Shown piece after piece: positions 6,192 through 48,273 of a stretch of 64,000 nt of DNA (positions are counted from its first letter, which is position 1; every line of letters begins with the position of its first letter). Position numbers and translations under genes: made by a program. The notes under the pieces are model-generated. The model did not search any database, was not told where the DNA came from, and worked only from the letters and a program-made list of their open reading frames with translations. Source of the DNA: Eledone cirrhosa. Taxonomy: Eukaryota. Location of the stretch: positions 160,704,001-160,768,000 of the forward strand of contig OZ024743.1 of NCBI GenBank assembly GCA_964016885.1, in the 5' to 3' direction.

Positions 6192-6203
6192 AATAATAAT
6201 AAT

Positions 6204-9156: not shown

Positions 9157-9220
<64 letters not shown>
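9157..9220. repeat. (AAT)n microsatellite, left border of the large insertion cluster
   Basis: Seen directly. Confidence 0.99.
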
Positions 9221-9223
<3 letters not shown>

Positions 9224-11873
9224 CAGACAAGAAAGAGCAGAGCCGTGGTGGAAGAAGCGACTGAGTGGGCAAATCGGGGAAATGAGAAATGACATAGGAA
9301 AGCTTGAGTCACTACTGAATGGGACACTAAAAAACATAGGCACTAAAAATAGACTGGAAATAAAATACAAAACTAGGAGTAAAAAGCTAAATATTATCAT
9401 AGAGGAATTGAAGCAACGCATTGTAGCAAAGAGTGCCAAAATCAGGCGATACGAGAACAGAGTCAGTCAGTATAAACAGAACCGCATGTTCGACAACAAC
9501 CAGAAGATGCTGTTTGGACAGCTTGAGGGGAAAGAAAGAGGCACCGACTTGATCCCTGGGGCGGAACAAGCTAAAACATTCTGGAGAGGAATATGGGAGC
9601 AGGATGTTAGACACAATGCCCAGGCAGGGTGGATTGAGACAGTACAGAGGGAGATCGGTGAGCAGGCACAGCAACAGACTGATTTGAGTATCACAGTTGA
9701 AACTCTTAAGGGGCAAGCCAAAAAACTAACCAACTGGAAATCACCAGGCCCAGATGGTGTGCAGGGGTATTGGATTAAACATTTAACATCCCTCCACCCG
9801 AAGCTGACGGCCATGTTCAATGACTGCTTGGTGTCGGGTGAGGTGCCAGAGTGGTTGACAAAAGGTACCACAGTTCTGATAATGAAAGACCGAATCAAGG
9901 GTAATGATGTTACCAACTATAGACCTATCACATGTCTGCCCGTAATGTGGAAACTGTTGACGAGCATTGTGTCTGAGGAAATCTACCATCACCTCCACAC
10001 AAACAACTTGTTGCCGGACGAACAGAAAGGATGCCGAAAGAAGTCACGTGGTACAAAGGACCAGTTGCTTATTGATAAGATGGTAATGGGGAATTGCAGG
10101 AGGAGACACACTGATCTTGCCATGGGATGGATAGACTACAGAAAGGCATTTGACATGGTGCCTCATTCCTGGATCACCAAAAGCCTGGAGATCTTCAGGG
10201 TGGCAGATAACATCAGACAGTTGCTGGGCAGGAGTATGGGGTCCTGGGAGACAGAGTTGACATCAACTGGAGTATCCTTGGGAAGCGTGAAGATCAAGAG
10301 AGGTATCTTCCAGGGAGATAGCCTGTCCCCTCTGTTGTTTGTCCTTGCCCTGATGCCCTTGACCATTATGCTGCGAAAAGTGAGAGCAGGATACAAGTTG
10401 GGAAGGGGAGAGCTTACCATCAATCACCTCCTCTTCATGGACGATCTTAAGCTCTTCGGGAAAAGTGAGAAGGAGTTGGATGTGCTTGTTGACACTGTCC
10501 GTATTTTCAGCAGTGATATATGTATGCAGTTTGGTATTGGTAAATGTGGAGTCATTGTGATGAGGAGGGGTAGGTTGAGCAGAAGTAACGGGATCCAGAT
10601 ACCAACAGGTGAGATGATAAAGGAAATTGACTCTGAGGAAGGATACAAGTATTTGGGCGTTCTGGAGGCTGATGGCATAAAGAACAAAAAAATGAAGGAA
10701 TTGTTAAGAACTGAATACATTCGGAGAGTAAGGAGCGTATTGAAGTCACATCTGAACAGCAGAAATGCCATAAGCGCAGTAAATTCCCGAGCTGTGTCTA
10801 TTATTAGGTACAGTGCGGGAATTCTGAGATGGAATGTTGCTGAACAAAAAGAAATGGATAGGAAGACTAGGAAGCTATTGACTATCTACAACATGTTCCA
10901 CAAGAGGAGTGATGTCGATAGACTCTACCTAAGGAGATCTGAGGGTGGAAGAGGTCTTATCAGCATAGAGGACTGTGTTCAGATGGAGAAAAACAACCTA
11001 TACAAATACGTGACCTATAGTAAGGAGCCAATGCTCAGAGCTGTACTGAAGGAGGGGACAGTAGGCCAGGGGATACCCAAGGAGGAAATAACATCAAGGA
11101 GGAAGAGCAGCCTTAAGGGAAAATCCCTTCATAGTACCTTCTTTGAGAAAACTGAATTTAGAGATCCACAGACATGGAACTGGTTGAGAAGAGGAGACCT
11201 CAAAAAGGCTACAGAAGGAATGCTAATGGCTGCGCAGGAGCAGGCCCTCAAAACGAAGTGGTTGAAGCACCATATCTACAAGGAGGAGGCTAGCCCACTG
11301 TGCAGGATCTGTGGAGAGAGAGAGGAGACTGTGGCTCACATTGTGTCCGAGTGTAAACACCTAGCCCAGACCCACTATAAGGGCTGGAGACACGATGTGA
11401 TGGGCAGGGTGATCCACTGGCACCTGTGCAAAGTAAACAATCTACCACATTCTGAGAAATGGTATGAGCATAGGCCAGAGGCGGTGATGGAGAACAGTCA
11501 GGTGAAGGTGCTGTGGGATTTTAGGATACAGACGGACAAAAAACTGGAACACAATAGACCTGACCTGGTGGTTGTGGACAAAGAAAAAAGATCGTGCCTG
11601 ATTGTGGATGTGGCCTGCCCGTTCGACACGAGAGTGCAAGAGAAGGAGAGGGAGAAAATTAACCGATACCAGGACCTAAAGTGGGAGGTGAAAAGGATTT
11701 GGAACTGCCATGAAGTCAAAGTGATCCCGATTGTCATAGGCGCACTGGGGACTATCTCCAAAGGTTTCCAGGGATGGTTAAAGAAAATCGGCCCCTTCAC
11801 GCTTTTTGGAACGCTTCAAAAGGCATGCTTGCTTGGAACGGCAAGAACCCTCCGATACGTCCTGAATATCTGA
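9219..11873 (+). CDS. Family A RT-RLE protein, uninterrupted but lacking its N-terminus
   Basis: Motifs [52 protein letters not shown], CRICx8HIVSEC, RPDLVVVD..IVDVACP..K. The called start at 9144 and the poly-Asn come from flanking DNA. Confidence 0.85.
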
Positions 11874-11947
11874 GGCTGCAGGTAGTGGCTTGATATTCAA
11901 TCCAACGGACTTTCCAGTTAACCAACATCAATGACTGAGATTCAAGG
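9221..11947 (+). mobile_element. R4/Dong-like RLE non-LTR retrotransposon, family A copy 1 (5'-truncated, longest copy)
   Basis: Single open RT+CCHC+RLE frame, 74-bp 3'UTR, (AAC/AAT)n tail. Confidence 0.92.
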
Positions 11948-11980
11948 AATAACAATAACAATAATAATAATAATAATAAT

Positions 11981-12162
11981 TGTTTCTACTTTAGGCACAA
12001 GGCCAGCAATTACCCAGTACATTACTGGTACTTTATTTTATCGACCCCGTAAGGATGAAAGGCAAAGTCAACCTCGGCGAGATTTGAATTCGGATCGTAA
12101 AGGGACGTAACTATGCTGGAAAGCATGGCGTCCGACCCTCTACCGATACTGCCAATTCAACG
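11981..12162 (-). mobile_element. tRNA-derived SINE copy
   Basis: Near-identical to 6204-6385; shares the (AAT)n tract at 11948-11980 tail-to-tail with R4 family A. Confidence 0.88.
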
Positions 12163-12409
12163 ATTTCTTTATTAACCACAAGAGTTTACATAAAGTAGAC
12201 ATTAAGGACAGTGCAGGACAATACAGGACGGTACAAATGGGCAGTTCTGCGTGTAAAAAACAAAAACAGAGGATGTAACAAAAAAATAACAATGAAAAAT
12301 TCCCCAATAGGAGGGAGACTTCGGAGGGACATTTGTGGAGAAAGACCAGTAAAAGGCCACAGTGACCCTGCCCACCAAGGCAAGTGCCCTCTCCCAGTTT
12401 TCCACCTTT

Positions 12410-15400
12410 AATTTACAGATACGTACTCAGAGTAGGCCCATACACTCGGGCCATTCTTGCTTCTCTCACCCATCTTTCAACAAAATGCTGGGAAGAGAGC
12501 ACTTCTACTCTGATTTTCCTTTTCAAATGAAATTTGAAAAAGTCAATCAGGGCATCACCGAAGAGGTAAGTGCTCGTCTTAAGTCCTTTCAAACGTGTCC
12601 ACCATACTATCTCTTTCGCCATGGCCACCAGACAGATAAAAACTGCCTGCCCTTCCCGGCTAAAGGAAGAGGGCGGGCCAATCCTCACGATGGACTCAGA
12701 TGATAGCCGGATCCGTCCTACACGCGACAGCAGGTGTTCGACATAAACCCACAAGTCAGCAATTTTCGGACACTGGACGAGTGCGTGCAGGACGGTTTCG
12801 TCGTCCTGCGCGCATCTCGGACATGCCCGGCTGACGGCACCTCCATGCCTGTAGAGTTTATGTCAAACTGGCAAGGCTCCACGGTAGCACTGCCAGGCCA
12901 GAGATTTCTGGAAGTTGTTCATAGGTCCCGGCCCGAAAGTTCTTCCGAAGAGATTGGCTAGTTGATTTATGTCGACGCCTAGAATTTCCCCAAGTACGCC
13001 GTCACTGTTCCCCTCCACTAATCCTCTATAGAACGCCAAGGTGGAGTTTCCACCGATCACATTGCCCGATTGGTCGAGGGCTGTGAGCGCCTGAAGACAT
13101 TCCAGTCTCCAGGCGCTCCCTCTCGGTCTTCGCTTGACCCAGGACTGCTGCTCCGTCAATGAAATGAGCTGGGGAAATACGTATCTAGCAAACGGCGACC
13201 ACACCTGATCACCGTCGAGGAAGAGGTGGAGATGTCGTATCCTGAGCGCGTGTCTGCGCATCATCAGCCACGGCATGCCCAGCCCTCCACGTAGCGGGTG
13301 TTGACAGCAGATGGACCGCCTGATCTTCGGAGCACGTCCCTTCCACAAAAAGCGAAAGAGCAAATGCTCCAGCGCAGTCAGGCGTGGCTTAGGACAAGGT
13401 ACGACGGTCAGGCGGTAGCAGATGATAGACGCGATTTACGCGTTAGCCACCTCCACTCGACCTTTCAGGGATAGCTTCCTCTCCGCCCATTTCTGGGTGA
13501 GAGAAGCAACTCTGCTCGTCACCTCGTCCCAGGTTTTGTGCGTCTGGAGGTCCGGACCGAACCAGACCCCTAGCAATTTAACCGGTCCGTCCGTCAAGCG
13601 TCCGACGACGCTCTTGGACTGCATGGACCTGCCTCTCCAGGTGCCGAGCTGCAGGCACACTGACTTTTCCTGGTTGATCATTGCTCCTGTCACCGCTTCG
13701 TATTCTCTTAGTGTAGTGCCTATCGCCTCGATGCGTTTGACGTTGGACACCACTACGGTGACATCGTCCGCATTGCTGACACGGATCTTCCGCATCCTTG
13801 TTCGCGCGGGACGCCCCACAACGTCTCCAGTTTGTGCAGTAATGGCTCGAGAGTCAATACGTACAAGAGGGACGAGAGGGGACATCCTTGGCGGACCGAG
13901 CGCTTGATGTTGAACGGTTCCGAATGGTGACCGTTCACTCTCACCACAGAGCAGATGTCGCTGTGCATGGCAGCGATCCAGCCTCTGAAGACGGGCCCAA
14001 AGCCAGCCGCCCTCAGGACTGCCGCTAGGTAACGATGGTCGACCCTATCGAAAGCTTTCGACTGATCCAAATTGATCAAGGATCCACCCGTGCCAGGTTC
14101 CCTAGCTACCCTCTCTACAATGTATCGCATGAGGTGGAGGTTGTCGTGGATGGATCTGTCGGGAATGGCGCATGTCTGCGCCTCTCCCACCAGATCACCA
14201 ACGACAAGCGCCAACCTCTTTGCTAGCACCTTGAACTCTGTGTTTAGCAGAGGTATGGGCCTGAAATTATCTATGTTATCCCCCTTGTTCGGATCCTTTC
14301 TCAGCAGTTCCGCCGCTCCTCGGCTCACAGAGCTGGGAATTCTCCCGTTCTGTTTCCAGTTGCAGTAGACGTCCGCCAAGAAGCCTCCGAAAAAGTATGG
14401 CATCTGTACGTAAAGTTCATAGGGCAGACCATCCAAACTAGGCGATTTACCCCTTGTGCAGCCAGTCATTGCCTCCCGTACTTCAGCGGCTGTTATCGGC
14501 TTTTAGCAACACTCCGCCTCGGTGGCCGAGAGCCGCGACAGTCCGTCGAGGTAGACACTAATCTCCATCCTTCGAGCCGGCCCACCGCTTCCCCGAACAG
14601 CTGAGCGAAGTGTCGGTGAAAAGCTTCACACATTTGCCCGGAATCGAGTAGCATGCGCCCGTCGTGGTCCACCAAAGACCGGATCGTGGCTTTGTTGCCA
14701 CGACGCGCCTCCGCCACTCGGGCCCATTGAACGGCTTTCGTCCCCTCGTGTCTAAGAGCACGCACACTAGCTCTGACAACGCAGCCTTCGTGCTTTGCAT
14801 TGAAGAATTGGTCAAGGGCCAATTTCGCCGCAAGTACGTCGGTCTCAATGCCTTTGCTAGGCGCCTCGTCTAATTTTCTAACTAATTCTCCCTCTGCTCT
14901 ATTTTTGTCTATTGCTAAAGCCTTACTAAACCTAATGGACTCTATTCTAATTGCTCTTTTCAGAGCAAACCACCACATGTTGTTGACGATGGCCCCCGTC
15001 AACGCCCGCTTAACTAGTTCGCTAATCCGGTCTCTGTAGGCCTTGCGCACTGGTAAGGACGCGTTTAGCTTCCAGTAGCCGGGTCCTCGTCTATGAAGCC
15101 TATCTAAGTCAAGCACACAGATCACGAATTTGTGGTCCGTGTAGCTGACTATCTTGAATTGTGGACAGCCTAGGCTAGACCTATCTATTTCCCTACAAAA
15201 TACTCTATCTAGATATGATCTGGATGACCCTATGCGATTTGTCCAAGTCCACATTGGTATATTCGGGAAATCCATTCGGTACCTGTCAGACAGTTCAAAA
15301 CGCCTGAGCAGGTTGGTGAGACTCTTGCACCCTCCTTCCCTATCCACTAATCCCACACAATCCCAGCGTGCATCTAAGATCCCGTTCCAGTCGCCCACTA

Positions 15401-15813
15401 ACACTAAAGAGCGGGACGTTCCAAGAAAGGTCTCCAGACGCTGGAAGAAATCAGGCCGCCCTGCTCCTGTCGGGGCATAGACGGCCACTAACCTGAAAGC
15501 TTGCCCTTCTCCGCTGGTCACGTCCAGCACCACCAACTTACCTTCTGGGTCCAGGAAGATGGCCCGTATGGCAAGATCCAAACCTCTCCGAAAAAGCACA
15601 GCAAATCTTCCCCCCGAAACCGGACGGCTGGGTGATGCGTACACGTCGTAGCCGCCGAAGATCGGTGCGAAGGCCCGTGCTTCGGACATTCTGGTCTCGC
15701 TGATGGCCATTACATCTATGTTTAGTGACCTGAGGTCGTTAAGCAGGTGGCCCTGCTTCCATGACGACCCCCAAGCCACGTGCATTTATGCTGCCTATTC
15801 TGAGTGAGGTCAT
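12410..15813 (-). pseudogene. Tx1-like ORF2 (APE-RT-CCHC), frameshifted
   Basis: ATG at 15813 (MTSLRIGSINARG); pieces 14493-15785, 13753-14469, 13436-13885, 12863-13363 and 12413-12754. Confidence 0.9.
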
Positions 15814-15847
15814 GTTGGAAAGGAGTGGAAAAGATGGGAAAGACCAC

Positions 15848-17671
15848 TTACCTTACTTCTCGTAGGGGAATGACGGTTTTTCCATCCTTTTCACTGCTTG
15901 TGGCCTCCTCAGGAAGGATGTCCTTATAAATCCTCCTGGAGAGTGCTTGTCGGAAGTCTCCGATGTCTTTGGGGAATTTTTGTTTTAGTGCCATGTACGT
16001 TTTCTGTGTGATGCGAGTGATTTGTATGTGTGGAGGTGGTGTGAACTTTTGGGTTGTTGTGTAGTCTTTTTCAGTGATGCTGGTGTTGTGTTGGATGTAG
16101 TGTAATAATTGCTTGTTGTTCAAATTTAATGCTGTGTAGTGTGTATCGTTTTGGTTGTTTTGTTTTTTTTGCGTTTGTTGTGGATTTGTTTCTGTTTCGC
16201 ATTTTGGTGACTTTTGTGGTGTAGGTGATGGTGGTGTTGGGGTTAGTGATGGTGATGGTGTTGGTGTTTGGGTTGATGGGGTTGGTGATGCTGGTGTGGA
16301 TGATGGCATATCTGTCCTAACTTTTTTGTTTGTTAATTTATTTGTTTCCCTCTGTATTTTGTTTTTGGAGGGGGAAGGAAGAGAATTTTTTCTTTTTTGG
16401 TTTCTTTTTTTTTTCCTGATACCGTTTCCCACTCCTCGTCGTCACAATCTGTCAACATTTGTGATAGGCCGGGGAGTGGAAAATCCTCCACAGGCGTTAG
16501 TTTTGGTTGTGGCGTAGTGGATGGTGTAGGCGCTGGTGCTAGTTCTGAAGCGTTGGGTGGTGGTGGTGTTGGTTTTGCTGGTGGTGGTGGTTTTGGTTTT
16601 GCTACTGTTGCTGGGGTTGTTGCTGTTATAGTTGCTTCTGTTGTTGCTGCTACAGTTGTTGCTGCCATCTCTGCTACTGGTGGTGTTGATGGTTGTGTCA
16701 CTGGGGTGGGTAGGAGAGGTGGCCTCAACCTTTTAGCCTGAGGGCAGAAAGCCCTTAGGTGGGTTCCTTCACCACAAACGACACACCTAGGCCTTCTGCC
16801 CTCGTCAATTACCGTGAGGTGGCTGCCGTCAGTGAGGTCTATTACCTCTGGGATCTCCTCAATGCTTTTTTGCTCCGCTTGGATCAGGAGCTCCATCCCA
16901 GATCCGGACCAGTTCTCCTGCTTTTCTTTTGCTATTGCTATTATCTTTGTGTTGGCTTCGATGCCGCCGAGGACGGCCGCTATTAGCCAGGTAATTTCGA
17001 TGGCCGGTGGAACGTGGGTCACCCTGATCTTTACGAGTCTCTGGCCACAATAGCTTGGGACGAGTGTGATGTCGTCACTTCTTAATGGGGCCATGGAGTG
17101 TTCTCTAGCCTCCTCTGGTGTTTCAAAGAACACGTCCACGGTTCCATACTTCTGCCCACGTCTGATGTGGATTTTTCTTGCCCACACATGTCCCAAAGCT
17201 TTTTGGATTTGGGATTCGGATGCTCGTTCCACTCGGCGCGATTTTACATTTATTGTTCGATACGACACGGTGCAGAGGCGCTGATGCTCCATTTTATTAG
17301 GTGGGGGGGAGGCTGACCCTGTACCCATCTTTCTTTACCATTTGTTTGGCATTTTCTAAATCCTCCTGAGTTACCGTAAATGCTTCGAACTGTTTTGCTA
17401 CTCTGGCAACACTCAGGGTGGTTTTTTTAATGTCATTGTTGTTGTTGTTGCTATTGTTATTTTTGATATTATTAATTTTAGTTTCAGTTGTGGTGGTGGT
17501 GACGTCAGTGAAAGTCGGTTTGGGAGAGTCTATTTTGGTTGAAAATATTTCGACATCACGAGTTGATTTATTTTTTCCTTTTGTTTCTGTTATCGCGGTG
17601 GTGGTGGTGGTGGAGGCTTTAACACCTGCAGTCATTGGTAATGGCCAGAAATGAATGTCTGCCTGAGACAA
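15848..17671 (-). pseudogene. Tx1-like ORF1, split by frameshifts in homopolymer runs
   Basis: Pieces 17297-17671, 16333-17328 (CCHC) and 15848-16432. Confidence 0.8.
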
Positions 17672-18101
17672 ATTTAAAATATTGCTACTGCTTATATTTT
17701 TTTTAGTGTTGGCAAACGTAGTAACATTTACAATGGTGGTGTCGGTGTGAGGTGTTAATTCGTGAGGAAGGCTTTAAGCTGCTTGGTGCAGAAGTGAATT
17801 AGCCATTTTTTTTTCAAAGAAATTTTTTGATAATCATAAAAGTTTAAATTTTGGGCACAAGGCCCCAATCTTTTTGGGTGTCCTTTTCGGAAAACAATGT
17901 ATGTGCGCTTATATATAGTTAACAATAACAATTTTCCATAAATGGCAATTTTTAACAAACGGAAATAACAAACCTTTGCCGAGCTCACGATGATACGATT
18001 TACTACGTAGGTCGCCAATAATAATAAAAATAATAATAATAATAATGATAATAATAATAATAATAATAATAATTGTGTCTGAGGAAATAATAATAATAAT
18101 A

Positions 18102-20082: not shown

Positions 20083-20088
20083 AATAAC

Positions 20089-20128
<40 letters not shown>

Positions 20129-20131
<3 letters not shown>

Positions 20132-35990: not shown

Positions 35991-36249
35991 GTACATCACA
36001 AGTCTAAACACTAAAGATGCATGTGTGAGTATGTATGTTCTTTCTTGAACATGGCGGACCTTGTTGTCTCTTGAGGTCACTGGTTGTGACTTGGTGATAA
36101 CTCGTATGAACATAAAGCAAGATAAATGCAACTGTAATAATAATAATAATAATAAAAAAGCATTCGATAGTTTGCCACACAGTTGGATTGAAAAATGTTT
36201 AGAGATTTTCAAAATATCCCCCGTTGTCAGGAGGTTTTAGTCGTTCAGT

Positions 36250-38004: not shown

Positions 38005-38263
38005 GTACATCACAAGTCTAAACACTAAAGATGCATGTGTGAGTATGTATGTTCTTTCTTGAACATGGCGGACCTTGTTGTCTCTTGAGGTCACTGGTTG
38101 TGACTTGGTGATAACTCGTATGAACATAAAGCAAGATAAATGCAACTGTAATAATAATAATAATAATAAAAAAGCATTCGATAGTTTGCCACACAGTTGG
38201 ATTGAAAAATGTTTAGAGATTTTCAAAATATCCCCCGTTGTCAGGAGGTTTTAGTCGTTCAGT

Positions 38264-40018
38264 ATGAAGACATGGAAAACGACACTCCTTTTCTATAGTG
38301 AAACAAAATCACTGGAAGCTGGAGAAGTTAATATTAATTGTGAAATTTTTCAGGGTGACTCTTTATCACCGCTTTTATTCTGCATCGCACTTATACCATT
38401 AAGTAAAATGCTCAATGAAACAAAACATGGATATAAAGTCTATGACAAAACCATTAATCACCTGTTCTACATGGATGACCTGAAACTATTTGCAAAAAAT
38501 GATGAACAATTGGAAGGGCTATTATCCACTGTGGAGCAGTTCAGTGATGACATTAAATTGGAGTGTGAACTAGATAAATGCGCCAAAGCAACGTTCACCA
38601 GAGGAAAGATGCTGAAGAATTCAGACATTAATCTTGATCGGGGGAACGTGATAAGAGAACTTGATCAAGAAAAAACTTACAAATATCTAGGTGTTTGTGA
38701 AGGAGATGGAATCAAGCACTCGACAATGAGGGAAAGGATAAGGAAGGAATGTTACCGCAGAGTAAGAGCAATCTTAAGAACGGAATTGAATGCAAGGAAT
38801 AGGATCGATGCCATAAACACCCTTGCCATACCAGTAGTAACCTACAGTTACAATGTCATCAACTGGTCAAGCACAGAGATCCGTAGGCTCGATACAAAAA
38901 TTCGAAAATTCTTAACCATGCACAGAATGCATCACTCTAAGGCAGATATAGATAGAATATATCTCCCTAGGAAAGAAGGAGGACGTGGGTTAATCCAGTT
39001 AGAAATTGCGTTGAAAACTGCAACAATTGGATTATCTACATATCTAAGGGAATCACATGTATGGATGATCAAACTCGTTTTGAAACACGAAAGCATCAAA
39101 AGATCATATTCCATTACAAAAGATGCACAAAGATACAGTAATGGACTACAAATTTCAGAAGTCCCATTTACTGTTGAAATGGAAAACACAGAAAAAGCAA
39201 AGCAGGTAAAAGTAACTGCAAAGAAAGAACTGCTACAGAAACTGGCTAAGAAATGGCAAGAAAAGCCTCTGTATGGAAAATACCCAGAGCGAGCTAATAA
39301 TCCTGATGTTGACAAAACTTTAACCCATCCGTGGTTGGCATCCTCTGGACTGAAATCGGAGACTGAAGGACTGATTATATCAGCACGAGATCAGTGTCTG
39401 CCAACAAAAAATTACCAAGCCAACATAATAAAAAATGGATGCAGCCCATTATGCCGCGTATGTAAAAAACAACCAGAGACCATTGACCATATAATTTCAA
39501 TGTGCAGTCCTATAGCTCTAACCGAATACCTAAACAGGCATGACAGAGCTGCACAATACATACATTGGATAATGTGTAAGCATTTTGACCTGCCCCATCA
39601 AAAGAATTGGTGGGAACATCAACCACCTCCCATACTTGAAAAAGATCACATCTCAATCTTGTGGAACTTTAGCATCCAAACAAACCGAAAAATAAATGCA
39701 AATAGACCTGATATAATATTGAAGGACTTTAAAAATAGGGTATGCCTGCTAATTGATATGTCTGTTCCAATAGAAAAGAATGTATCTATAAAAACATTCG
39801 AAAAATTGAGCAAGTATAAGGACCTGGAAATAGAAATTGGAAAAATGTGGAAATTGAGAACTAAAACAATACCAGTGGTTGTAGGCGCTCTGGGAATGAT
39901 ACCTAAGGGGTCTAATGATTACTTATCGCAAATCCCAGGAAACCCGCGTATAGGAGAAATACAAAAGATAGTACTAATGGGAACTGCCCATATACTAAGG
40001 AAGATTCTGTCAATATAA
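38264..40018 (+). CDS. Family B truncated ORF, unit 3
   Basis: 584 aa, near-identical. Confidence 0.55.
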   Translation: MKTWKTTLLFYSETKSLEAGEVNINCEIFQGDSLSPLLFCIALIPLSKMLNETKHGYKVYDKTINHLFYMDDLKLFAKNDEQLEGLLSTVEQFSDDIKLECELDKCAKATFTRGKMLKNSDINLDRGNVIRELDQEKTYKYLGVCEGDGIKHSTMRERIRKECYRRVRAILRTELNARNRIDAINTLAIPVVTYSYNVINWSSTEIRRLDTKIRKFLTMHRMHHSKADIDRIYLPRKEGGRGLIQLEIALKTATIGLSTYLRESHVWMIKLVLKHESIKRSYSITKDAQRYSNGLQISEVPFTVEMENTEKAKQVKVTAKKELLQKLAKKWQEKPLYGKYPERANNPDVDKTLTHPWLASSGLKSETEGLIISARDQCLPTKNYQANIIKNGCSPLCRVCKKQPETIDHIISMCSPIALTEYLNRHDRAAQYIHWIMCKHFDLPHQKNWWEHQPPPILEKDHISILWNFSIQTNRKINANRPDIILKDFKNRVCLLIDMSVPIEKNVSIKTFEKLSKYKDLEIEIGKMWKLRTKTIPVVVGALGMIPKGSNDYLSQIPGNPRIGEIQKIVLMGTAHILRKILSI

Positions 40019-40277
40019 GTACATCACAAGTCTAAACACTAAAGATGCATGTGTGAGTATGTATGTTCTTTCTTGAACATGGCGGACCTTGTTGTCTCTT
40101 GAGGTCACTGGTTGTGACTTGGTGATAACTCGTATGAACATAAAGCAAGATAAATGCAACTGTAATAATAATAATAATAATAAAAAAGCATTCGATAGTT
40201 TGCCACACAGTTGGATTGAAAAATGTTTAGAGATTTTCAAAATATCCCCCGTTGTCAGGAGGTTTTAGTCGTTCAGT

Positions 40278-42032
40278 ATGAAGACATGGAAAACGACACT
40301 CCTTTTCTATAGTGAAACAAAATCACTGGAAGCTGGAGAAGTTAATATTAATTGTGAAATTTTTCAGGGTGACTCTTTATCACCGCTTTTATTCTGCATC
40401 GCACTTATACCATTAAGTAAAATGCTCAATGAAACAAAACATGGATATAAAGTCTATGACAAAACCATTAATCACCTGTTCTACATGGATGACCTGAAAC
40501 TATTTGCAAAAAATGATGAACAATTGGAAGGGCTATTATCCACTGTGGAGCAGTTCAGTGATGACATTAAATTGGAGTGTGAACTAGATAAATGCGCCAA
40601 AGCAACGTTCACCAGAGGAAAGATGCTGAAGAATTCAGACATTAATCTTGATCGGGGGAACGTGATAAGAGAACTTGATCAAGAAAAAACTTACAAATAT
40701 CTAGGTGTTTGTGAAGGAGATGGAATCAAGCACTCGACAATGAGGGAAAGGATAAGGAAGGAATGTTACCGCAGAGTAAGAGCAATCTTAAGAACGGAAT
40801 TGAATGCAAGGAATAGGATCGATGCCATAAACACGCTTGCCATACCAGTAGTAACCTACAGTTACAATGTCATCAACTGGTCAAGCACAGAGATCCGTAG
40901 GCTCGATACAAAAATTCGAAAATTCTTAACCATGCACAGAATGCATCACTCTAAGGCAGATATAGATAGAATATATCTCCCTAGGAAAGAAGGAGGACGT
41001 GGGTTAATCCAGTTAGAAATTGCGTTGAAAACTGCAACAATTGGATTATCTACATATCTAAGGGAATCACATGTATGGATGATCAAACTCGTTTTGAAAC
41101 ACGAAAGCATCAAAAGATCATATTCCATTACAAAAGATGCACAAAGATACAGTAATGGACTACAAATTTCAGAAGTCCCATTTACTGTTGAAATGGAAAA
41201 CACAGAAAAAGCAAAGCAGGTAAAAGAAACTGCAAAGAAAGAACTGCTACAGAAACTGGCTAAGAAATGGCAAGAAAAGCCTCTGTATGGAAAATACCCA
41301 GAGCGAGCTAACAATCCTGATGTTGACAAAACTTTAACCCATCCGTGGTTGGCATCCTCTGGACTGAAATCGGAGACTGAAGGACTGATTATATCAGCAC
41401 GAGATCAGTGTCTGCCAACAAAAAATTACCAAGCCAACATAATAAAAAATGGATGCAGCCCATTATGCCGTGTATGCAAAAAACAACCAGAGACCATTGA
41501 CCATATAATTTCAATGTGCAGTCCTATAGCTCTAACCGAATACCTAAACAGGCATGACAGAGCTGCACAATACATACATTGGATAATGTGTAAGCATTTT
41601 GACCTGCCCCATCAAAAGAATTGGTGGGAACATCAACCACCTCCCATACTTGAAAAAGATCACATCTCAATCTTGTGGAACTTTAGCATCCAAACAAACC
41701 GAAAAATAAATGCAAATAGACCTGATATAATATTGAAGGACTTTAAAAATAGGGTATGCCTGCTAATTGATATGTCTGTTCCAATAGACAAGAATGTATC
41801 TATAAAAACATTCGAAAAATTGAGCAAGTATAAGGACCTGGAAATAGAAATTGGAAAAATGTGGAAATTGAGAACTAAAACAATACCAGTGGTTGTAGGC
41901 GCTCTGGGAATGATACCTAAGGGGTCTAATGATTACTTATCGCAAATCCCAGGAAACCCGCGTATAGGAGAAATACAAAAGATAGTACTAATGGGAACTG
42001 CCCATATACTAAGGAAGATTCTGTCAATATAA
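40278..42032 (+). CDS. Family B truncated ORF, unit 4
   Basis: 584 aa, same protein as unit 1. Confidence 0.55.
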   Translation: MKTWKTTLLFYSETKSLEAGEVNINCEIFQGDSLSPLLFCIALIPLSKMLNETKHGYKVYDKTINHLFYMDDLKLFAKNDEQLEGLLSTVEQFSDDIKLECELDKCAKATFTRGKMLKNSDINLDRGNVIRELDQEKTYKYLGVCEGDGIKHSTMRERIRKECYRRVRAILRTELNARNRIDAINTLAIPVVTYSYNVINWSSTEIRRLDTKIRKFLTMHRMHHSKADIDRIYLPRKEGGRGLIQLEIALKTATIGLSTYLRESHVWMIKLVLKHESIKRSYSITKDAQRYSNGLQISEVPFTVEMENTEKAKQVKETAKKELLQKLAKKWQEKPLYGKYPERANNPDVDKTLTHPWLASSGLKSETEGLIISARDQCLPTKNYQANIIKNGCSPLCRVCKKQPETIDHIISMCSPIALTEYLNRHDRAAQYIHWIMCKHFDLPHQKNWWEHQPPPILEKDHISILWNFSIQTNRKINANRPDIILKDFKNRVCLLIDMSVPIDKNVSIKTFEKLSKYKDLEIEIGKMWKLRTKTIPVVVGALGMIPKGSNDYLSQIPGNPRIGEIQKIVLMGTAHILRKILSI

Positions 42033-42291
42033 GTACATCACAAGTCTAAACACTAAAGATGCATGTGTGAGTATGTATGTTCTTTCTTGAACATGGCGGA
42101 CCTTGTTGTCTCTTGAGGTCACTGGTTGTGACTTGGTGATAACTCGTATGAACATAAAGCAAGATAAATGCAACTGTAATAATAATAATAATAATAAAAA
42201 AGCATTCGATAGTTTGCCACACAGTTGGATTGAAAAATGTTTAGAGATTTTCAAAATATCCCCCGTTGTCAGGAGGTTTTAGTCGTTCAGT

Positions 42292-44046
42292 ATGAAGACA
42301 TGGAAAACGACACTCCTTTTCTATAGTGAAACAAAATCACTGGAAGCTGGAGAAGTTAATATTAATTGTGAAATTTTTCAGGGTGACTCTTTATCACCGC
42401 TTTTATTCTGCATCGCACTTATACCATTAAGTAAAATGCTCAATGAAACAAAACATGGATATAAAGTCTATGACAAAACCATTAATCACCTGTTCTACAT
42501 GGATGACCTGAAACTATTTGCAAAAAATGATGAACAATTGGAAGGGCTATTATCCACTGTGGAGCAGTTCAGTGATGACATTAAATTGGAGTTTGAACTA
42601 GATAAATGCGCCAAAGCAACGTTCACCAGAGGAAAGATGCTGAAGAATTCAGACATTAATCTTGATCGGGGGAACGTGATAAGAGAACTTGATCAAGAAA
42701 AAACTTACAAATATCTAGGTGTTTGTGAAGGAGATGGAATCAAGCACTCGACAATGAGGGAAAGGATAAGGAAGGAATGTTACCGCAGAGTAAGAGCAAT
42801 CTTAAGAACGGAATTGAATGCAAGGAATAGGATCGATGCCATAAACACCCTTGCCATACCAGTAGTAACCTACAGTTACAATGTCATCAACTGGTCAAGC
42901 ACAGAGATCCGTAGGCTCGATACAAAAATTCGAAAATTCTTAACCATGCACAGAATGCATCACTCTAAGGCAGATATAGATAGAATATATCTCCCTAGGA
43001 AAGAAGGAGGACGTGGGTTAATCCAGTTAGAAATTGCGTTGAAAACTGCAACAATTGGATTATCTACATATCTAAGGGAATCACATGTATGGATGATCAA
43101 ACTCGTTTTGAAACACGAAAGCATCAAAAGATCATATTCCATTACAAAAGATGCACAAAGATACAGTAATGGACTACAAATTTCAGAAGTCCCATTTACT
43201 GTTGAAATGGAAAACACAGAAAAAGCAAAGCAGGTAAAAGTAACTGCAAAGAAAGAACTGCTACAGAAACTGGCTAAGAAATGGCAAGAAAAGCCTCTGT
43301 ATGGAAAATACCCAGAGCGAGCTAACAATCCTGATGTTGACAAAACTTTAACCCATCCGTGGTTGGCATCCTCTGGACTGAAATCGGAGACTGAAGGACT
43401 GATTATATCAGCACGAGATCAGTGTCTGCCAACAAAAAATTACCAAGCCAACATAATAAAAAATGGATGCAGCCCATTATGCCGCGTATGCAAAAAACAA
43501 CCAGAGACCATTGACCATATAATTTCAATGTGCAGTCCTATAGCTCTAACCGAATACCTAAACAGGCATGACAGAGCTGCACAATACATACATTGGATAA
43601 TGTGTAAGCATTTTGACCTGCCCCATCAAAAGAATTGGTGGGAACATCAACCACCTCCCATACTTGAAAAAGATCACATCTCAATCTTGTGGAACTTTAG
43701 CATCCAAACAAACCGAAAAATAAATGCAAATAGACCTGATATAATATTGAAGGACTTTAAAAATAGGGTATGCCTGCTAATTGATATGTCTGTTCCAATA
43801 GACAAGAATGTATCTATAAAAACATTCGAAAAATTGAGCAAGTATAAGGACCTGGAAATAGAAATTGGAAAAATGTGGAAATTGAGAACTAAAACAATAC
43901 CAGTGGTTGTAGGCGCTCTGGGAATGATACCTAAGGGGTCTAATGATTACTTATCGCAAATCCCAGGAAACCCGCGTATAGGAGAAATACAAAAGATAGT
44001 ACTAATGGGAACTGCCCATATACTAAGGAAGATTCTGTCAATATAA
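42292..44046 (+). CDS. Family B truncated ORF, unit 5
   Basis: 584 aa, same protein as unit 2. Confidence 0.55.
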   Translation: MKTWKTTLLFYSETKSLEAGEVNINCEIFQGDSLSPLLFCIALIPLSKMLNETKHGYKVYDKTINHLFYMDDLKLFAKNDEQLEGLLSTVEQFSDDIKLEFELDKCAKATFTRGKMLKNSDINLDRGNVIRELDQEKTYKYLGVCEGDGIKHSTMRERIRKECYRRVRAILRTELNARNRIDAINTLAIPVVTYSYNVINWSSTEIRRLDTKIRKFLTMHRMHHSKADIDRIYLPRKEGGRGLIQLEIALKTATIGLSTYLRESHVWMIKLVLKHESIKRSYSITKDAQRYSNGLQISEVPFTVEMENTEKAKQVKVTAKKELLQKLAKKWQEKPLYGKYPERANNPDVDKTLTHPWLASSGLKSETEGLIISARDQCLPTKNYQANIIKNGCSPLCRVCKKQPETIDHIISMCSPIALTEYLNRHDRAAQYIHWIMCKHFDLPHQKNWWEHQPPPILEKDHISILWNFSIQTNRKINANRPDIILKDFKNRVCLLIDMSVPIDKNVSIKTFEKLSKYKDLEIEIGKMWKLRTKTIPVVVGALGMIPKGSNDYLSQIPGNPRIGEIQKIVLMGTAHILRKILSI

Positions 44047-44305
44047 GTACATCACAAGTCTAAACACTAAAGATGCATGTGTGAGTATGTATGTTCTTTC
44101 TTGAACATGGCGGACCTTGTTGTCTCTTGAGGTCACTGGTTGTGACTTGGTGATAACTCGTATGAACATAAAGCAAGATAAATGCAACTGTAATAATAAT
44201 AATAATAATAAAAAAGCATTCGATAGTTTGCCACACAGTTGGATTGAAAAATGTTTAGAGATTTTCAAAATATCCCCCGTTGTCAGGAGGTTTTAGTCGT
44301 TCAGT

Positions 44306-46060
44306 ATGAAGACATGGAAAACGACACTCCTTTTCTATAGTGAAACAAAATCACTGGAAGCTGGAGAAGTTAATATTAATTGTGAAATTTTTCAGGGTGA
44401 CTCTTTATCACCGCTTTTATTCTGCATCGCACTTATACCATTAAGTAAAATGCTCAATGAAACAAAACATGGATATAAAGTCTATGACAAAACCATTAAT
44501 CACCTGTTCTACATGGATGACCTGAAACTATTTGCAAAAAATGATGAACAATTGGAAGGGCTATTATCCACTGTGGAGCAGTTCAGTGATGACATTAAAT
44601 TGGAGTTTGAACTAGATAAATGCGCCAAAGCAACGTTCACCAGAGGAAAGATGCTGAAGAATTCAGACATTAATCTTGATCGGGGGAACGTGATAAGAGA
44701 ACTTGATCAAGAAAAAACTTACAAATATCTAGGTGTTTGTGAAGGAGATGGAATCAAGCACTCGACAATGAGGGAAAGGATAAGGAAGGAATGTTACCGC
44801 AGAGTAAGAGCAATCTTAAGAACGGAATTGAATGCAAGGAATAGAATCGATGCCATAAACACGCTTGCCATACCAGTAGTAACCTACAGTTACAATGTCA
44901 TCAACTGGTCAAGCACAGAGATCCGTAGGCTCGATACAAAAATTCGAAAATTCTTAACCATGCACAGAATGCATCACTCTAAGGCAGATATAGATAGAAT
45001 ATATCTCCCTAGGAAAGAAGGAGGACGTGGGTTAATCCAGTTAGAAATTGCGTTGAAAACTGCAACAATTGGATTATCTACATATCTAAGGGAATCACAT
45101 GTATGGATGATCAAACTCGTTTTGAAACACGAAAGCATCAAAAGATCATATTCCATTACAAAAGATGCACAAAGATACAGTAATGGACTACAAATTTCAG
45201 AAGTCCCATTTACTGTTGAAATGGAAAACACAGAAAAAGCAAAGCAGGTAAAAGTAACTGCAAAGAAAGAACTGCTACAGAAACTGGCTAAGAAATGGCA
45301 AGAAAAGCCTCTGTATGGAAAATACCCAGAGCGAGCTAACAATCCTGATGTTGACAAAACTTTAACCCATCCGTGGTTGGCATCCTCTGGACTGAAATCG
45401 GAGACTGAAGGACTGATTATATCAGCACGAGATCAGTGTCTGCCAACAAAAAATTACCAAGCCAACATAATAAAAAATGGATGCAGCCCATTATGCCGTG
45501 TATGCAAAAAACAACCAGAGACCATTGACCATATAATTTCAATGTGCAGTCCTATAGCTCTAACCGAATACCTAAACAGGCATGACAGAGCTGCACAATA
45601 CATACATTGGATAATGTGTAAGCATTTTGACCTGCCCCATCAAAAGAATTGGTGGGAACATCAACCACCTCCCATACTTGAAAAAGATCACATCTCAATC
45701 TTGTGGAACTTTAGCATCCAAACAAACCGAAAAATAAATGCAAATAGACCTGATATAATATTGAAGGACTTTAAAAATAGGGTATGCCTGCTAATTGATA
45801 TGTCTGTTCCAATAGACAAGAATGTATCTATAAAAACATTCGAAAAATTGAGCAAGTATAAGGACCTGGAAATAGAAATTGGAAAAATGTGGAAATTGAG
45901 AACTAAAACAATACCAGTGGTTGTAGGCGCTCTGGGAATGATACCTAAGGGGTCTAATGATTACTTATCGCAAATCCCAGGAAACCCGCGTATAGGAGAA
46001 ATACAAAAGATAGTACTAATGGGAACTGCCCATATACTAAGGAAGATTCTGTCAATATAA
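44306..46060 (+). CDS. Family B truncated ORF, unit 6
   Basis: 584 aa, near-identical. Confidence 0.55.
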   Translation: MKTWKTTLLFYSETKSLEAGEVNINCEIFQGDSLSPLLFCIALIPLSKMLNETKHGYKVYDKTINHLFYMDDLKLFAKNDEQLEGLLSTVEQFSDDIKLEFELDKCAKATFTRGKMLKNSDINLDRGNVIRELDQEKTYKYLGVCEGDGIKHSTMRERIRKECYRRVRAILRTELNARNRIDAINTLAIPVVTYSYNVINWSSTEIRRLDTKIRKFLTMHRMHHSKADIDRIYLPRKEGGRGLIQLEIALKTATIGLSTYLRESHVWMIKLVLKHESIKRSYSITKDAQRYSNGLQISEVPFTVEMENTEKAKQVKVTAKKELLQKLAKKWQEKPLYGKYPERANNPDVDKTLTHPWLASSGLKSETEGLIISARDQCLPTKNYQANIIKNGCSPLCRVCKKQPETIDHIISMCSPIALTEYLNRHDRAAQYIHWIMCKHFDLPHQKNWWEHQPPPILEKDHISILWNFSIQTNRKINANRPDIILKDFKNRVCLLIDMSVPIDKNVSIKTFEKLSKYKDLEIEIGKMWKLRTKTIPVVVGALGMIPKGSNDYLSQIPGNPRIGEIQKIVLMGTAHILRKILSI

Positions 46061-46322
46061 GTACATCACAAGTCTAAACACTAAAGATGCATGTGTGAGT
46101 ATGTATGTTCTTTCTTGAACATGGCGGACCTTGTTGTCTCTTGAGGTCACTGGTTGTGACTTGGTGATAACTCGTATGAACATAAAGCAAGATAAATGCA
46201 ACTGTAATAATAATAATAATAATAATAAAAAAGCATTCGATAGTTTGCCACACAGTTGGATTGAAAAATGTTTAGAGATTTTCAAAATATCCCCCGTTGT
46301 CAGGAGGTTTTAGTCGTTCAGT

Positions 46323-48077
46323 ATGAAGACATGGAAAACGACACTCCTTTTCTATAGTGAAACAAAATCACTGGAAGCTGGAGAAGTTAATATTAATTGT
46401 GAAATTTTTCAGGGTGACTCTTTATCACCGCTTTTATTCTGCATCGCACTTATACCATTAAGTAAAATGCTCAATGAAACAAAACATGGATATAAAGTCT
46501 ATGACAAAACCATTAATCACCTGTTCTACATGGATGACCTGAAACTATTTGCGAAAAATGATGAACAATTGGAAGGGCTATTATCCACTGTGGAGCAGTT
46601 CAGTGATGACATTAAATTGGAGTTTGAACTAGATAAATGCGCCAAAGCAACGTTCACCAGAGGAAAGATGCTGAAGAATTCAGACATTAATCTTGATCGG
46701 GGGAACGTGATAAGAGAACTTGATCAAGAAAAAACTTACAAATATCTAGGTGTTTGTGAAGGAGATGGAATCAAGCACTCGACAATGAGGGAAAGGATAA
46801 GGAAGGAATGTTACCGCAGAGTAAGAGCAATCTTAAGAACGGAATTGAATGCAAGGAATAGGATCGATGCCATAAACACGCTTGCCATACCAGTAGTAAC
46901 CTACAGTTACAATGTCATCAACTGGTCAAGCACAGAGATCCGTAGGCTCGATACAAAAATTCGAAAATTCTTAACCATGCACAGAATGCATCACTCTAAG
47001 GCAGATATAGATAGAATATATCTCCCTAGGAAAGAAGGAGGACGTGGGTTAATCCAGTTAGAAATTGCGTTGAAAACTGCAACAATTGGATTATCTACAT
47101 ATCTAAGGGAATCACATGTATGGATGATCAAACTCGTTTTGAAACACGAAAGCATCAAAAGATCATATTCCATTACAAAAGATGCACAAAGATACAGTAA
47201 TGGACTACAAATTTCAGAAGTCCCATTTACTGTTGAAATGGAAAACACAGAAAAAGCAAAGCAGGTAAAAGTAACTGCAAAGAAAGAACTGCTACAGAAA
47301 CTGGCTAAGAAATGGCAAGAAAAGCCTCTGTATGGAAAATACCCAGAGCGAGCTAACAATCCTGATGTTGACAAAACTTTAACCCATCCGTGGTTGGCAT
47401 CCTCTGGACTGAAATCGGAGACTGAAGGACTGATTATATCAGCACGAGATCAGTGTCTGCCAACAAAAAATTACCAAGCCAACATAATAAAAAATGGATG
47501 CAGCCCATTATGCCGCGTATGCAAAAAACAACCAGAGACCATTGACCATATAATTTCAATGTGCAGTCCTATAGCTCTAACCGAATACCTAAACAGGCAT
47601 GACAGAGCTGCACAATACATACATTGGATAATGTGTAAGCATTTTGACCTGCCCCATCAAAAGAATTGGTGGGAACATCAACCACCTCCCATACTTGAAA
47701 AAGATCAGATCTCAATCTTGTGGAACTTTAGCATCCAAACAGACCGAAAAATAGATGCAAACAGACCTGATATAATATTGAAGGACTTTAAAAATAGGGT
47801 ATGGCTGCTAATTGATATGTCCGTTCCAATAGACAAGAATGTATCTATAAAAACATTCGAAAAATTGAGCAAGTATAAGGACCTGGAAATAGAAATTGGA
47901 AAAATGTGGAAATTGAGAACTAAAACAATACCTGTGGTTGTAGGCGCTCTGGGAATGATACCTAAGGGGTCTAATGATTACTTATCGCAAATCCCAGGAA
48001 ACCCGCGTATAGGAGAAATACAAAAGATAGTACTAATGGGAACTGCCCATATACTAAGGAAGATTCTGTCAATATAA
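46323..48077 (+). CDS. Family B truncated ORF, unit 7
   Basis: 584 aa; private variants near the C-terminus. Confidence 0.55.
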   Translation: MKTWKTTLLFYSETKSLEAGEVNINCEIFQGDSLSPLLFCIALIPLSKMLNETKHGYKVYDKTINHLFYMDDLKLFAKNDEQLEGLLSTVEQFSDDIKLEFELDKCAKATFTRGKMLKNSDINLDRGNVIRELDQEKTYKYLGVCEGDGIKHSTMRERIRKECYRRVRAILRTELNARNRIDAINTLAIPVVTYSYNVINWSSTEIRRLDTKIRKFLTMHRMHHSKADIDRIYLPRKEGGRGLIQLEIALKTATIGLSTYLRESHVWMIKLVLKHESIKRSYSITKDAQRYSNGLQISEVPFTVEMENTEKAKQVKVTAKKELLQKLAKKWQEKPLYGKYPERANNPDVDKTLTHPWLASSGLKSETEGLIISARDQCLPTKNYQANIIKNGCSPLCRVCKKQPETIDHIISMCSPIALTEYLNRHDRAAQYIHWIMCKHFDLPHQKNWWEHQPPPILEKDQISILWNFSIQTDRKIDANRPDIILKDFKNRVWLLIDMSVPIDKNVSIKTFEKLSKYKDLEIEIGKMWKLRTKTIPVVVGALGMIPKGSNDYLSQIPGNPRIGEIQKIVLMGTAHILRKILSI

Positions 48078-48219
48078 GTACATCACAAGTCTAAACACTA
48101 AAGATGCATGTGTGAGTATGTATGTTCTTCTTGAACATGGCGGACCTTGTTGTCTCTTGAGGTCACTGGCTGTGACTTGGTGATAACTCGTATGAACATA
48201 AAGCAAGATAAATGCAACT

Positions 48220-48220
<1 letters not shown>

Positions 48221-48273
<53 letters not shown>
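48221..48273. repeat. (TAA)n microsatellite, right border of the insertion cluster
   Basis: Seen directly. Confidence 0.99.

What the first reader, a model, noticed from the sequence alone, without database searches (positions are those of the whole stretch)
9157..48273. About 39 kb built by serial insertion into (AAT)n: a self-renewing landing pad
Seen: between unique flanks there are 9 family A copies, 8 family B copies, one Tx1 and one SINE, nearly all separated by co-oriented AAT tracts. R4 copies are always plus; the Tx1 and the full SINE are minus. No element interrupts another's body, and only ~29950-30165 looks like non-element spacer. Inference: each insertion regenerates the target through its own tail, creating a multi-family array analogous to telomeric retrotransposon arrays but at an internal microsatellite.
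Basis: partly seen in the sequence, partly recalled or inferred. Interest (0 to 1): 0.72.

Follow-up and report, generated by a model that had tools for sequence, protein, structure and literature searches.

The report
Retrotransposon stack half built by duplication
A 39-kb pile of jumping genes that sit in AAT repeats is really there, but about half of it was likely made by copying two already-inserted pieces in tandem rather than by fresh insertions, a known route from jumping genes to satellite-like DNA.

Summary
The described structure is real. Window 9157-48273 holds 9 copies of one RLE-type LINE (A), 8 of a second (B), one full-length APE-type Tx1-like LINE and one SINE. The RLE copies are on +, the Tx1-like LINE and SINE on -. 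All 27 of 27 AAT tracts are co-oriented.

The "19 serial insertions" reading holds for only about 8 events. A4-A9 are six units of exactly 1,349 bp that share one idiosyncratic 53-nt junction, found nowhere else in the 3-Gb genome (6 of 6 hits are here). B2-B8 are seven units of 2,014 bp with the same junction and tail. They carry 12 alleles absent from 22 other copies, plus hybrid units. By contrast, 20 independent B copies elsewhere have tails of 3-21 units, and the 8 whose 5' ends I could see are all truncated at different points.

So 11 of 19 copies (48% of the bases) most likely arose by tandem DNA duplication of a "truncated copy + tail" unit. This fits the published dimer-to-satellite model. 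Stacking in tails is genome-wide: 13 of 20 sampled B tails abut another such element. The locus is two stacks split by a 198-bp spacer, and the left flank is itself a dispersed repeat. The assembly could not be checked with reads.

This scan has already noted such AAT stacks many times on other DNA of this genome. Dong-type targeting of (TAA)n is in print.

The parts
9157..9220 (+). (ATA)21 = (AAT)n tract, the left-most target tract
9221..11980 (+). A1: 5'-truncated family A copy (2,760 bp). An 883-aa open frame carries RT, a CCHC motif and a restriction-like endonuclease. The (AAT)7 tail is at 11960-11980.
11981..12159 (-). SINE (179 bp). Its (ATT)n tail is the same tract as A1's tail. It carries a tRNA-like T-arm motif (my reading of the sequence; no Rfam hit).
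12160..18016 (-). Full-length Tx1-like APE-type LINE (5,857 bp) with decayed frames. Its 3' end is AATAAAGAAATC and abuts the SINE directly.
18017..18103 (+). Imperfect AAT tract, then the A2 5' junction stutter (TGTGTCTGAGGA, then (AAT)6)
18104..20127 (+). A2: family A copy truncated at A1 position about 746, with an (AAT)13 tail
20129..21855 (+). A3: family A copy truncated at A1 position about 1040, with an (AAT)9 tail
21856..29946 (+). A4-A9: six units of exact period 1,349 bp. Each unit is a 53-nt filler junction, then 1,293-1,296 bp of the A 3' part, then an (AAT)9 tail ((AAT)7 on A9). A4-A7 are identical, A8 is a mosaic, and A9 carries 8 private changes.
29947..30144 (.). Spacer (198 bp) between the two stacks. 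It holds a roughly 50-nt + strand SINE 3' fragment.
30145..34139 (+). B1: full-length family B copy (3,977 bp plus (AAT)6). It has an RT domain and broken frames.
34140..48272 (+). B2-B8: seven units of period 2,014 bp. Each is 1,996 bp of the B 3' part plus (AAT)6, with (AAT)7 after B7 and (AAT)17 at the end. All have identical junctions. B2 = B5 and B3 = B6; B4 is a hybrid.

Best explanation
The locus holds two adjacent stacks of non-LTR retrotransposons sitting in (AAT)n, in which about eight separate insertions were likely followed by tandem DNA duplication (probably unequal exchange) of two 'truncated copy + tail' units, giving the 6 x 1,349-bp and 7 x 2,014-bp arrays.

Shown:
- Families A and B are RLE-type LINEs ending in (AAT)n. 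The Tx1-like LINE and the SINE end in (ATT)n and lie on the other strand.
- Copies sit tail-to-head without cutting each other's bodies.
- The two arrays have exact periods, identical junctions and private shared alleles.

Inferred:
- Each element enters by target-primed reverse transcription, with its repeat tail pairing to the nicked microsatellite strand. This fixes its orientation and leaves a new tract as the next target.
- A tail-to-internal dimer (A3-A4, B1-B2) then gives about 1.3-2 kb of direct homology, on which unequal sister-chromatid or homologue exchange (or replication slippage) multiplies the unit.
- Later exchanges make hybrid units.
For: (1) Exact periods. AAT tracts recur at 1,349-bp steps six times and at 2,014-bp steps seven times. 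Self-BLAST gives 99.2-99.7% identity along the arrays.

(2) Family A junction. All six A junctions carry the same 53-nt filler: (AAT)9, GAAGGAATTG, (TAATAATTGAA)x3 and so on. A 35-mer from it occurs 6 times in the 3.0-Gb genome, all 6 in this array.

(3) Family B junction and tails. Seven B junctions are identical, and 6 of the 7 tracts that precede them are exactly (AAT)6.
- In 20 independent B copies the tails are 3-21 units, and only 1 of 20 equals 6.
- The 8 copies whose 5' end lay in the fetched DNA are truncated at 8 different positions.

(4) Private alleles.
- B2-B8 differ jointly from B1 at 41 sites. At 12 of these the array allele is in 0 of 22 other copies.
- One such dinucleotide allele occurs 8 times among 2,936 genomic sites. 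Seven are in the array. The eighth is in an unrelated 94%-identical copy with another truncation.

(5) Recombination signs.
- B2 = B5 and B3 = B6 at the segregating sites. B4 combines the B2-type 5' allele with the B3-type 3' alleles.
- A8 shares derived states with both A4-A7 and A9.

(6) Genuine stacks elsewhere (L026-L029) are heterogeneous in family, length and tail. No two consecutive equal spacings occur among the first 100 listed hits of A or of B.

(7) A second, older case lies just downstream. Two A copies share the same truncation and junction, with 23 differences in 1,785 bp.

(8) Tail-landing is general. 13 of 20 B tails abut A or B on +, or SINE or Tx1-like on -, and the orientation rule holds in 13 of 13. 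Gaps of 10 kb or less number 10 for B (9 same orientation) and 18 for A (17 same orientation), against about 1 expected.

(9) Literature.
- Dong elements target (TAA)n (PMC3812793 and PMC7998251, passages read).
- Tail-to-internal TE dimers expand to arrays with identical junctions by unequal exchange (PMC5932611, abstract and sections 7 and 18 read).
Against: - No read-level check of the assembled copy numbers was possible. Only short contigs were served, and the junction was masked as repeat.
- The B truncation point is not unique. The same 32-mer junction occurs once more, in an old copy on another chromosome. Identical truncation alone is therefore weak evidence for B, and the case rests on tails, private alleles and hybrid units.
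- Unequal exchange, replication slippage and other duplication routes cannot be told apart from sequence.
- No empty or orthologous site was found, so the order of insertions and the original state of the microsatellite are inferred.
- Clade names (R4/Dong, Tx1) rest on domain make-up, target and one automatic name, not on a tree.
Confidence: 0.85

Rival explanations
1. Pure serial insertion: all 19 copies are separate retrotransposition events, each into the tail of the previous one.
For: Tail-landing is real and common. The B truncation point recurs once elsewhere, so a microhomology hot spot exists.
Against: - Six identical 53-nt filler junctions are found only here.
- Periods and tail lengths are exact, against tails of 3-21 units elsewhere.
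- 12 array alleles are seen in 0 of 22 other copies, and the tested allele is essentially confined to the array.
- Hybrid units are present.
Confidence: 0.03
2. One-event concatemer: during a single insertion, the reverse transcriptase jumped repeatedly from the 5' end of a truncated RNA to the tail of another identical RNA, laying down several units at once.
For: It would give identical units, tails and junctions. Template jumping by R2-type reverse transcriptase is known (recalled from memory, not read here).
Against: - The A filler is itself a multi-step stutter and would have to be re-made identically six times.
- Units share subsets of variants (B2 = B5, B3 = B6, B4 hybrid, A8 mosaic), which needs later DNA exchange anyway.
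- The B progenitor carries 12 alleles not seen in other copies.
Confidence: 0.04
3. Assembly artefact: the arrays are real repeats, but their unit numbers (or their very presence) come from mis-assembly of near-identical LINE copies.
For: A4-A7 are 100% identical over 5.4 kb. No raw long reads were available.
Against: The arrays have ordered internal variants and diverged edge units (A8, A9, B8) joined to distinct flanks. The junction k-mers occur only on this contig. An older dimer of the same kind lies nearby.
Confidence: 0.08

Closest known systems
Dong elements (R4 clade, RLE-type non-LTR retrotransposons) specific for (TAA)n: Bombyx Dong, DongAg, DongBg, ostracod Dong1/2
   Same: Families A and B have RT plus a C-terminal CCHC motif and a restriction-like endonuclease. 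Their best solved relative is R2 protein. They end in (AAT)n and sit in (AAT)n. This is the target stated for Dong in insects, molluscs and cnidarians (PMC3812793 and PMC7998251, passages read).
   Different: - No tree was built, so clade membership is not shown.
- No N-terminal Myb/SANT hit was found.
- No 5' HDV-like ribozyme was found with Rfam or by folding.
- Two families only distantly related at the protein level share the target here.
TE tandem dimers that expand into satellite-like arrays by unequal exchange (McGurk and Barbash 2018, PMC5932611: Drosophila R1 array, hobo 16-mer, tail-to-internal non-LTR dimers)
   Same: A tail-to-internal dimer is made by double insertion at a preferred site. 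It is then amplified into an array in which every junction is identical, and later variants also spread. This matches A3/A4-A9 and B1/B2-B8.
   Different: Here the preferred site is the element's own microsatellite tail. The arrays are small (6 and 7 units, 8 and 14 kb). The exchange itself is inferred.
Telomeric retrotransposon arrays (Drosophila HeT-A/TART, named in PMC5932611 section 7; Bombyx SART/TRAS, recalled)
   Same: Head-to-tail, variably 5'-truncated copies of several families. Each new copy is added at a repeat end that the previous copy provides.
   Different: The site is internal, not a chromosome end. No end-protection role is implied. Any tract in the stack can be hit. Two strands are used by two endonuclease types.
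Microsatellite-specific Tx1-clade LINEs Kibi (TC)n and Koshi (TTC)n (PMC3812793, passage read)
   Same: An APE-type LINE with two ORFs that ends in, and sits in, one microsatellite in fixed orientation. The best named relative is 'Transposon TX1 149 kDa protein', at 31% identity.
   Different: The target here is (ATT)n, the opposite strand of the Dong target. I found no paper naming this target for Tx1 (searches only). Clade not tested by a tree.

Membership tests
R4/Dong clade (RLE-type non-LTR retrotransposon) | Reverse transcriptase domain | tested here: met
   PF00078 matches A at E 4e-23 and B at E 1e-29.
R4/Dong clade (RLE-type non-LTR retrotransposon) | C-terminal CCHC motif plus PD-(D/E)xK restriction-like endonuclease, with no APE domain | tested here: met
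   A residues 771-844 align to the C-terminal endonuclease part of solved R2 protein. zf-RVT is a weak hit. No PF03372 hit was found in A or B. B's C-terminal frames are broken.
R4/Dong clade (RLE-type non-LTR retrotransposon) | (TAA)n target and (TAA)n 3' end (Dong lineage) | tested here: met
   There are 2,376 exact genomic matches to the B 3' end plus (AAT)3. Of the 8 sampled copies whose 5' end lay in the fetched DNA, 7 have an AAT tract upstream. In the locus, all A and B copies end in AAT.
R4/Dong clade (RLE-type non-LTR retrotransposon) | Placement inside the R4 clade in an RT phylogeny | not tested
   No named R4, Dong, R2, NeSL or CRE reference sequences were available. The 120 listed homologues carry no informative names.
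R4/Dong clade (RLE-type non-LTR retrotransposon) | N-terminal diverged Myb/SANT domain (PMC7998251) and 5' HDV-like ribozyme (PMC3774820) | tested here: inconclusive
   No Pfam hit in the B1 N-terminal frame or in three full-length A-like homologues. No Rfam hit. The MFE z-score is -1.0. The published detections used profile or structure methods that I did not run.
Tx1 clade (APE-type LINE) | ORF2 with an N-terminal APE endonuclease followed by RT, plus a separate ORF1 | tested here: met
   PF03372 and PF00078 lie in one 740-aa frame of the L002 copy, with a 531-aa upstream frame. PF03372 is also found in the window copy.
Tx1 clade (APE-type LINE) | Phylogenetic placement with Tx1L, Keno, Kibi and Koshi | not tested
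   The only support is an automatic name on the best named homologue, at 31% identity over 82% of the query. No PDB relative of the APE part was found.
TE-dimer-derived tandem array (unequal-exchange model) | Founding tail-to-internal dimer, with the unit length equal to the offset between homologous points of the two copies | tested here: met
   The A3 to A4 offset is 1,352 bp against a period of 1,349 bp (the units carry a 3-bp deletion). The B1 to B2 offset is 2,013 bp against a period of 2,014 bp (a 1-bp indel).
TE-dimer-derived tandem array (unequal-exchange model) | Every junction in the array identical and private to the locus | tested here: met
   For A, 6 of 6 genomic hits are in the array. 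For B, 7 of 8 are.
TE-dimer-derived tandem array (unequal-exchange model) | Copy-number variation between haplotypes or individuals | not testable with these tools
   Only short contigs and RAD-seq runs were offered. The junction region was masked when reads were laid.

The most novel reading that the evidence does not exclude
This locus catches two satellite-like arrays at birth. Microsatellite-homing LINEs make tail-to-internal dimers as a by-product of landing in their own tails, and in this genome that habit, shared by two RLE families, a Tx1-like LINE using the opposite strand and its likely SINE partner, would be a standing source of new kilobase-unit tandem repeats.
Probability: 0.3. 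Interest if true: 0.45.

Novelty: new member of a known kind. Interest (0 to 1): 0.27.

Why it matters
It corrects how such stacks should be read. Copy counts in microsatellite "landing pads" overstate transposition activity when exact-period units are present.

It also gives a clean, datable example of the step from transposon dimer to tandem array outside Drosophila: a founder copy with about 0.6% private changes, then units 0-0.3% apart. The targeting habit and the dimer-expansion model are both already published, and the scan has reported the same kind of stack many times in this genome. The added value is therefore modest.

Tried and rejected
- DNA search of the own genome with the A 3' end returned nothing because common words are skipped. 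I used exact patterns instead.
- A degenerate pattern gave only a pooled count, so I repeated it with the exact allele.
- Rfam found no family at gathering score in the window, and only chance-level hits at the B1 5' end.
- The MFE fold of the B1 leader was no better than shuffles, with z = -1.0. A 5' ribozyme was therefore neither found nor excluded.
- Reads on the left junction were short contigs only. None bridges flank to A1, and runs of other organisms covered only the element body, so there is no orthologous or empty site.
In the longer stretch the junction was skipped as repeat. This gives no support either way for unit number.
- Pfam found no N-terminal Myb/SANT hit.
- PDB search with the APE part found no hit.
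- Protein searches gave no informative names for family A.
- Earlier-notes look-ups by place 'near' and by words returned nothing.
- I considered gene conversion among independently inserted copies and rejected it, because conversion would not equalise truncation points and tails.
Full report
**Place and material**

The window is C4:160,704,001-160,768,000 of a 3.0-Gb assembly in 1,796 contigs. Earlier notes of this scan call the genome octopus-like. I did not test that. The only taxon hint from my calls is that the nearest atlas cluster of the APE domain is mostly molluscan, with the phylum known for 3 members.

**Anatomy**

TRF and a regex scan show 27 tracts of 12 nt or more inside 9157-48273. 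All read AAT on the + strand and none reads ATT. Self-BLAST, junction print-outs and reads of the sequence give this order:

| Coordinates | Strand | Feature |
|---|---|---|
| 9157-9220 | + | (ATA)21 tract |
| 9221-11980 | + | A1, 2,760 bp, (AAT)7 tail |
| 11981-12159 | - | SINE |
| 12160-18016 | - | Full-length Tx1-like LINE, abutting the SINE with no tract between |
| 18017-18103 | + | Imperfect AAT tract and a stutter |
| 18104-20127 | + | A2 |
| 20129-21855 | + | A3 |
| 21856-29946 | + | A4-A9 |
| 29947-30144 | . | 198-bp spacer holding a + strand SINE 3' fragment |
| 30145-34139 | + | B1, full length by comparison with L002 |
| 34140-48272 | + | B2-B8, ending in (AAT)17 |

**What the families are**

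- *Family A.* A1 has an 883-aa open frame with RT (PF00078, E 4e-23) and a weak zf-RVT hit. Its best solved relatives are R2 proteins (E 1e-30). A second aligned stretch (A residues 771-844) falls on the R2 C-terminal endonuclease part. Full-length homologues are about 1,130-1,160 aa, so A1 lacks about 250 N-terminal residues.
- *Family B.* B has RT (E 1e-29) in broken frames.
- *Tx1-like LINE.* It has an APE domain. In a better copy (L002) APE and RT lie in one 740-aa frame behind a 531-aa ORF1. Its best named homologue is an automatically named "Transposon TX1 149 kDa protein", at 31% identity.
- *3' ends.* The LINE ends AATAAAGAAA(A/T)C followed by (ATT)n. The SINE ends ...AAAGTAGAAACA followed by (ATT)n. 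The likeness of these 3' ends suggests that the SINE borrows the LINE's machinery. This is an inference.
- *Clade names.* R4/Dong and Tx1 rest on domain make-up and target. I built no tree.

**Tail-landing is general in this genome**

- The B 3' end plus (AAT)3 has 2,376 exact matches. The A 3' end has 3,757.
- Among the first 100 listed places of each family, gaps of 10 kb or less number 10 for B (9 in the same orientation) and 18 for A (17 in the same orientation). About 1 is expected at random.
- 21 of 23 A-B pairs within 10 kb are co-oriented.
- I fetched 20 B copies chosen from single hits:
  - Tails are 3-21 AAT units.
  - The 8 copies whose 5' end lay in the fetched DNA are truncated at 8 different positions, and 7 of the 8 have AAT upstream.
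  - Directly after the tail come A on + (3 copies), B on + (2), SINE on - (4) and Tx1-like on - (4). That is 13 of 20 identified, with the orientation rule kept in 13 of 13.
  - Of the other 7, three share one unidentified sequence and four look unrelated.
- Four fetched clusters (L026-L029) are mixtures of unequal fragments with unequal tracts.

It is what published Dong biology predicts: Dong targets (TAA)n (PMC3812793 and PMC7998251, passages read).

**The two arrays are not serial insertions**

*Family A (A4-A9).* The six units have a period of exactly 1,349 bp. Each starts with the same 53-nt filler: (AAT)9, GAAGGAATTG, three TAATAATTGAA repeats, then re-entry into the element. This looks like the scar of one messy 5' joining. 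A 35-mer from it occurs six times in the genome, all six here. A4-A7 are identical over the aligned 1.3 kb. A8 shares derived states with both A4-A7 (a 3-bp deletion and column 887) and A9 (columns 435, 441 and 810). A9 has 8 private changes.

*Family B (B2-B8).* The seven units have a period of 2,014 bp with identical junctions. Six of the seven tracts preceding them are exactly (AAT)6.
- They differ jointly from B1 at 41 sites. At 12 of these the array allele is in 0 of 22 other copies.
- One such TA allele is found 8 times among 2,936 sites of that 27-mer. Seven are in the array. One is in an unrelated 94%-identical copy with a different truncation.
- Segregating sites give B2 = B5 and B3 = B6, with B4 a 5'-B2-type / 3'-B3-type hybrid.

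*Fit to the exchange model.* The unit lengths equal the offsets between homologous points of the founding dimers: A3/A4 is 1,352 bp less a 3-bp deletion, and B1/B2 is 2,013 bp plus a 1-bp indel. That is what unequal exchange on a tail-to-internal dimer produces. It is the model of McGurk and Barbash (PMC5932611, abstract and sections 7 and 18 read), in which expansion of a dimer gives an array with the same junction throughout.

*A second case nearby.* An older dimer of the same kind lies just past the window's end. Two A copies share one truncation and one junction, with 23 differences in 1,785 bp.

*A point against over-reading.* The B junction 32-mer also occurs once on another chromosome, in an old copy. 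That truncation point can therefore recur, probably through AT/A microhomology with the tract. For B the argument rests on the tails, the private alleles and the hybrid units.

**Tally**

About eight insertion events are needed: A1, SINE, Tx1-like, A2, A3, one 1,349-bp founder, B1 and one 2,014-bp founder. Eleven of 19 copies, 18,829 of 39,117 bp (48%), come from duplication. The locus is two stacks separated by a 198-bp spacer.

**Flanks**

Contig depth hinted that 8,970-9,160 is repetitive. The 26 nt abutting the left tract occur 78 times in the genome at 2 mismatches or fewer. In 10 of 10 fetched copies the repeat runs on for about 37 nt and ends in various microsatellites. That continuation is absent from the right flank. 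So the flanks are not a simple split unique site, and the starting state is unknown.

**Limits**

- No relatives are held for this genome.
- The runs offered were short contigs or RAD-seq.
- Laying them gave no bridge over either junction. Neither the assembly nor the orthologue test could be done.
- No 5' ribozyme or N-terminal Myb domain was detected. The methods used here are weaker than the published ones.

**Comparison and verdict**

This is a Dong-like (TAA)n habit combined with a Tx1-like LINE and SINE on the opposite strand. The scan has already noted that combination repeatedly on other DNA of this genome. Two small dimer-derived tandem arrays are added. I rate it a new member of known kinds, of modest interest.

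Noticed in passing
window 561-5850: A second Tx1-like family copy on the minus strand, about 80% identical to the one in the locus over 2.7 kb. It has an (ATT)19 tail at 561-617. Another Tx1-like 5' end begins directly left of that tract.
   Followed up: partly
window 5851-6397: A Tx1-like 3' fragment followed by two SINE copies in tandem (196-bp period, 87% alike), each with its own short ATT tract, all on the minus strand.
   Followed up: no
window 63951-64000 and L004 1-10000: Another stack starts at the window's end: four A copies then a Tx1-like copy. Two of the A copies share one truncation and one junction (period 1,807 bp, 23 differences in 1,785 bp). This is an older tandem duplication of the same kind.
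   Followed up: partly
window 8970-9156; L030-L039: The left flank belongs to a dispersed repeat (78 hits at 2 mismatches or fewer). In other copies it runs on about 37 nt and ends in different microsatellites (CATA, CA, TA). In the window it stops early at the AAT tract.
   Followed up: partly
L008, L012, L018 (after the B tails): Three of 20 sampled B tails are followed by the same unidentified sequence (it begins AAGGGAAGAAGAC...). It matches none of A1, B1, the Tx1-like LINE or the SINE. It is possibly the 5' part of a full-length element or a further tail-landing family.
   Followed up: no
L001 (C1:108,150,600-108,160,500): An old B copy (94% identical) has exactly the same 5' truncation junction as the B2-B8 units, next to a Tx1-like copy. 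This truncation point recurs independently.
   Followed up: partly
window 53849-55094: Two direct repeats of about 460 bp (94.7% alike) lie just before a (CATA)23 tract. Earlier notes of this scan report Dong-like families at CATA/TACA repeats in this genome.
   Followed up: no
window 56223-56675: A 150-aa open frame with a weak GIY-YIG hit (E 1.6e-4, just under Pfam's cut-off). It is possibly a Penelope-like element fragment.
   Followed up: no
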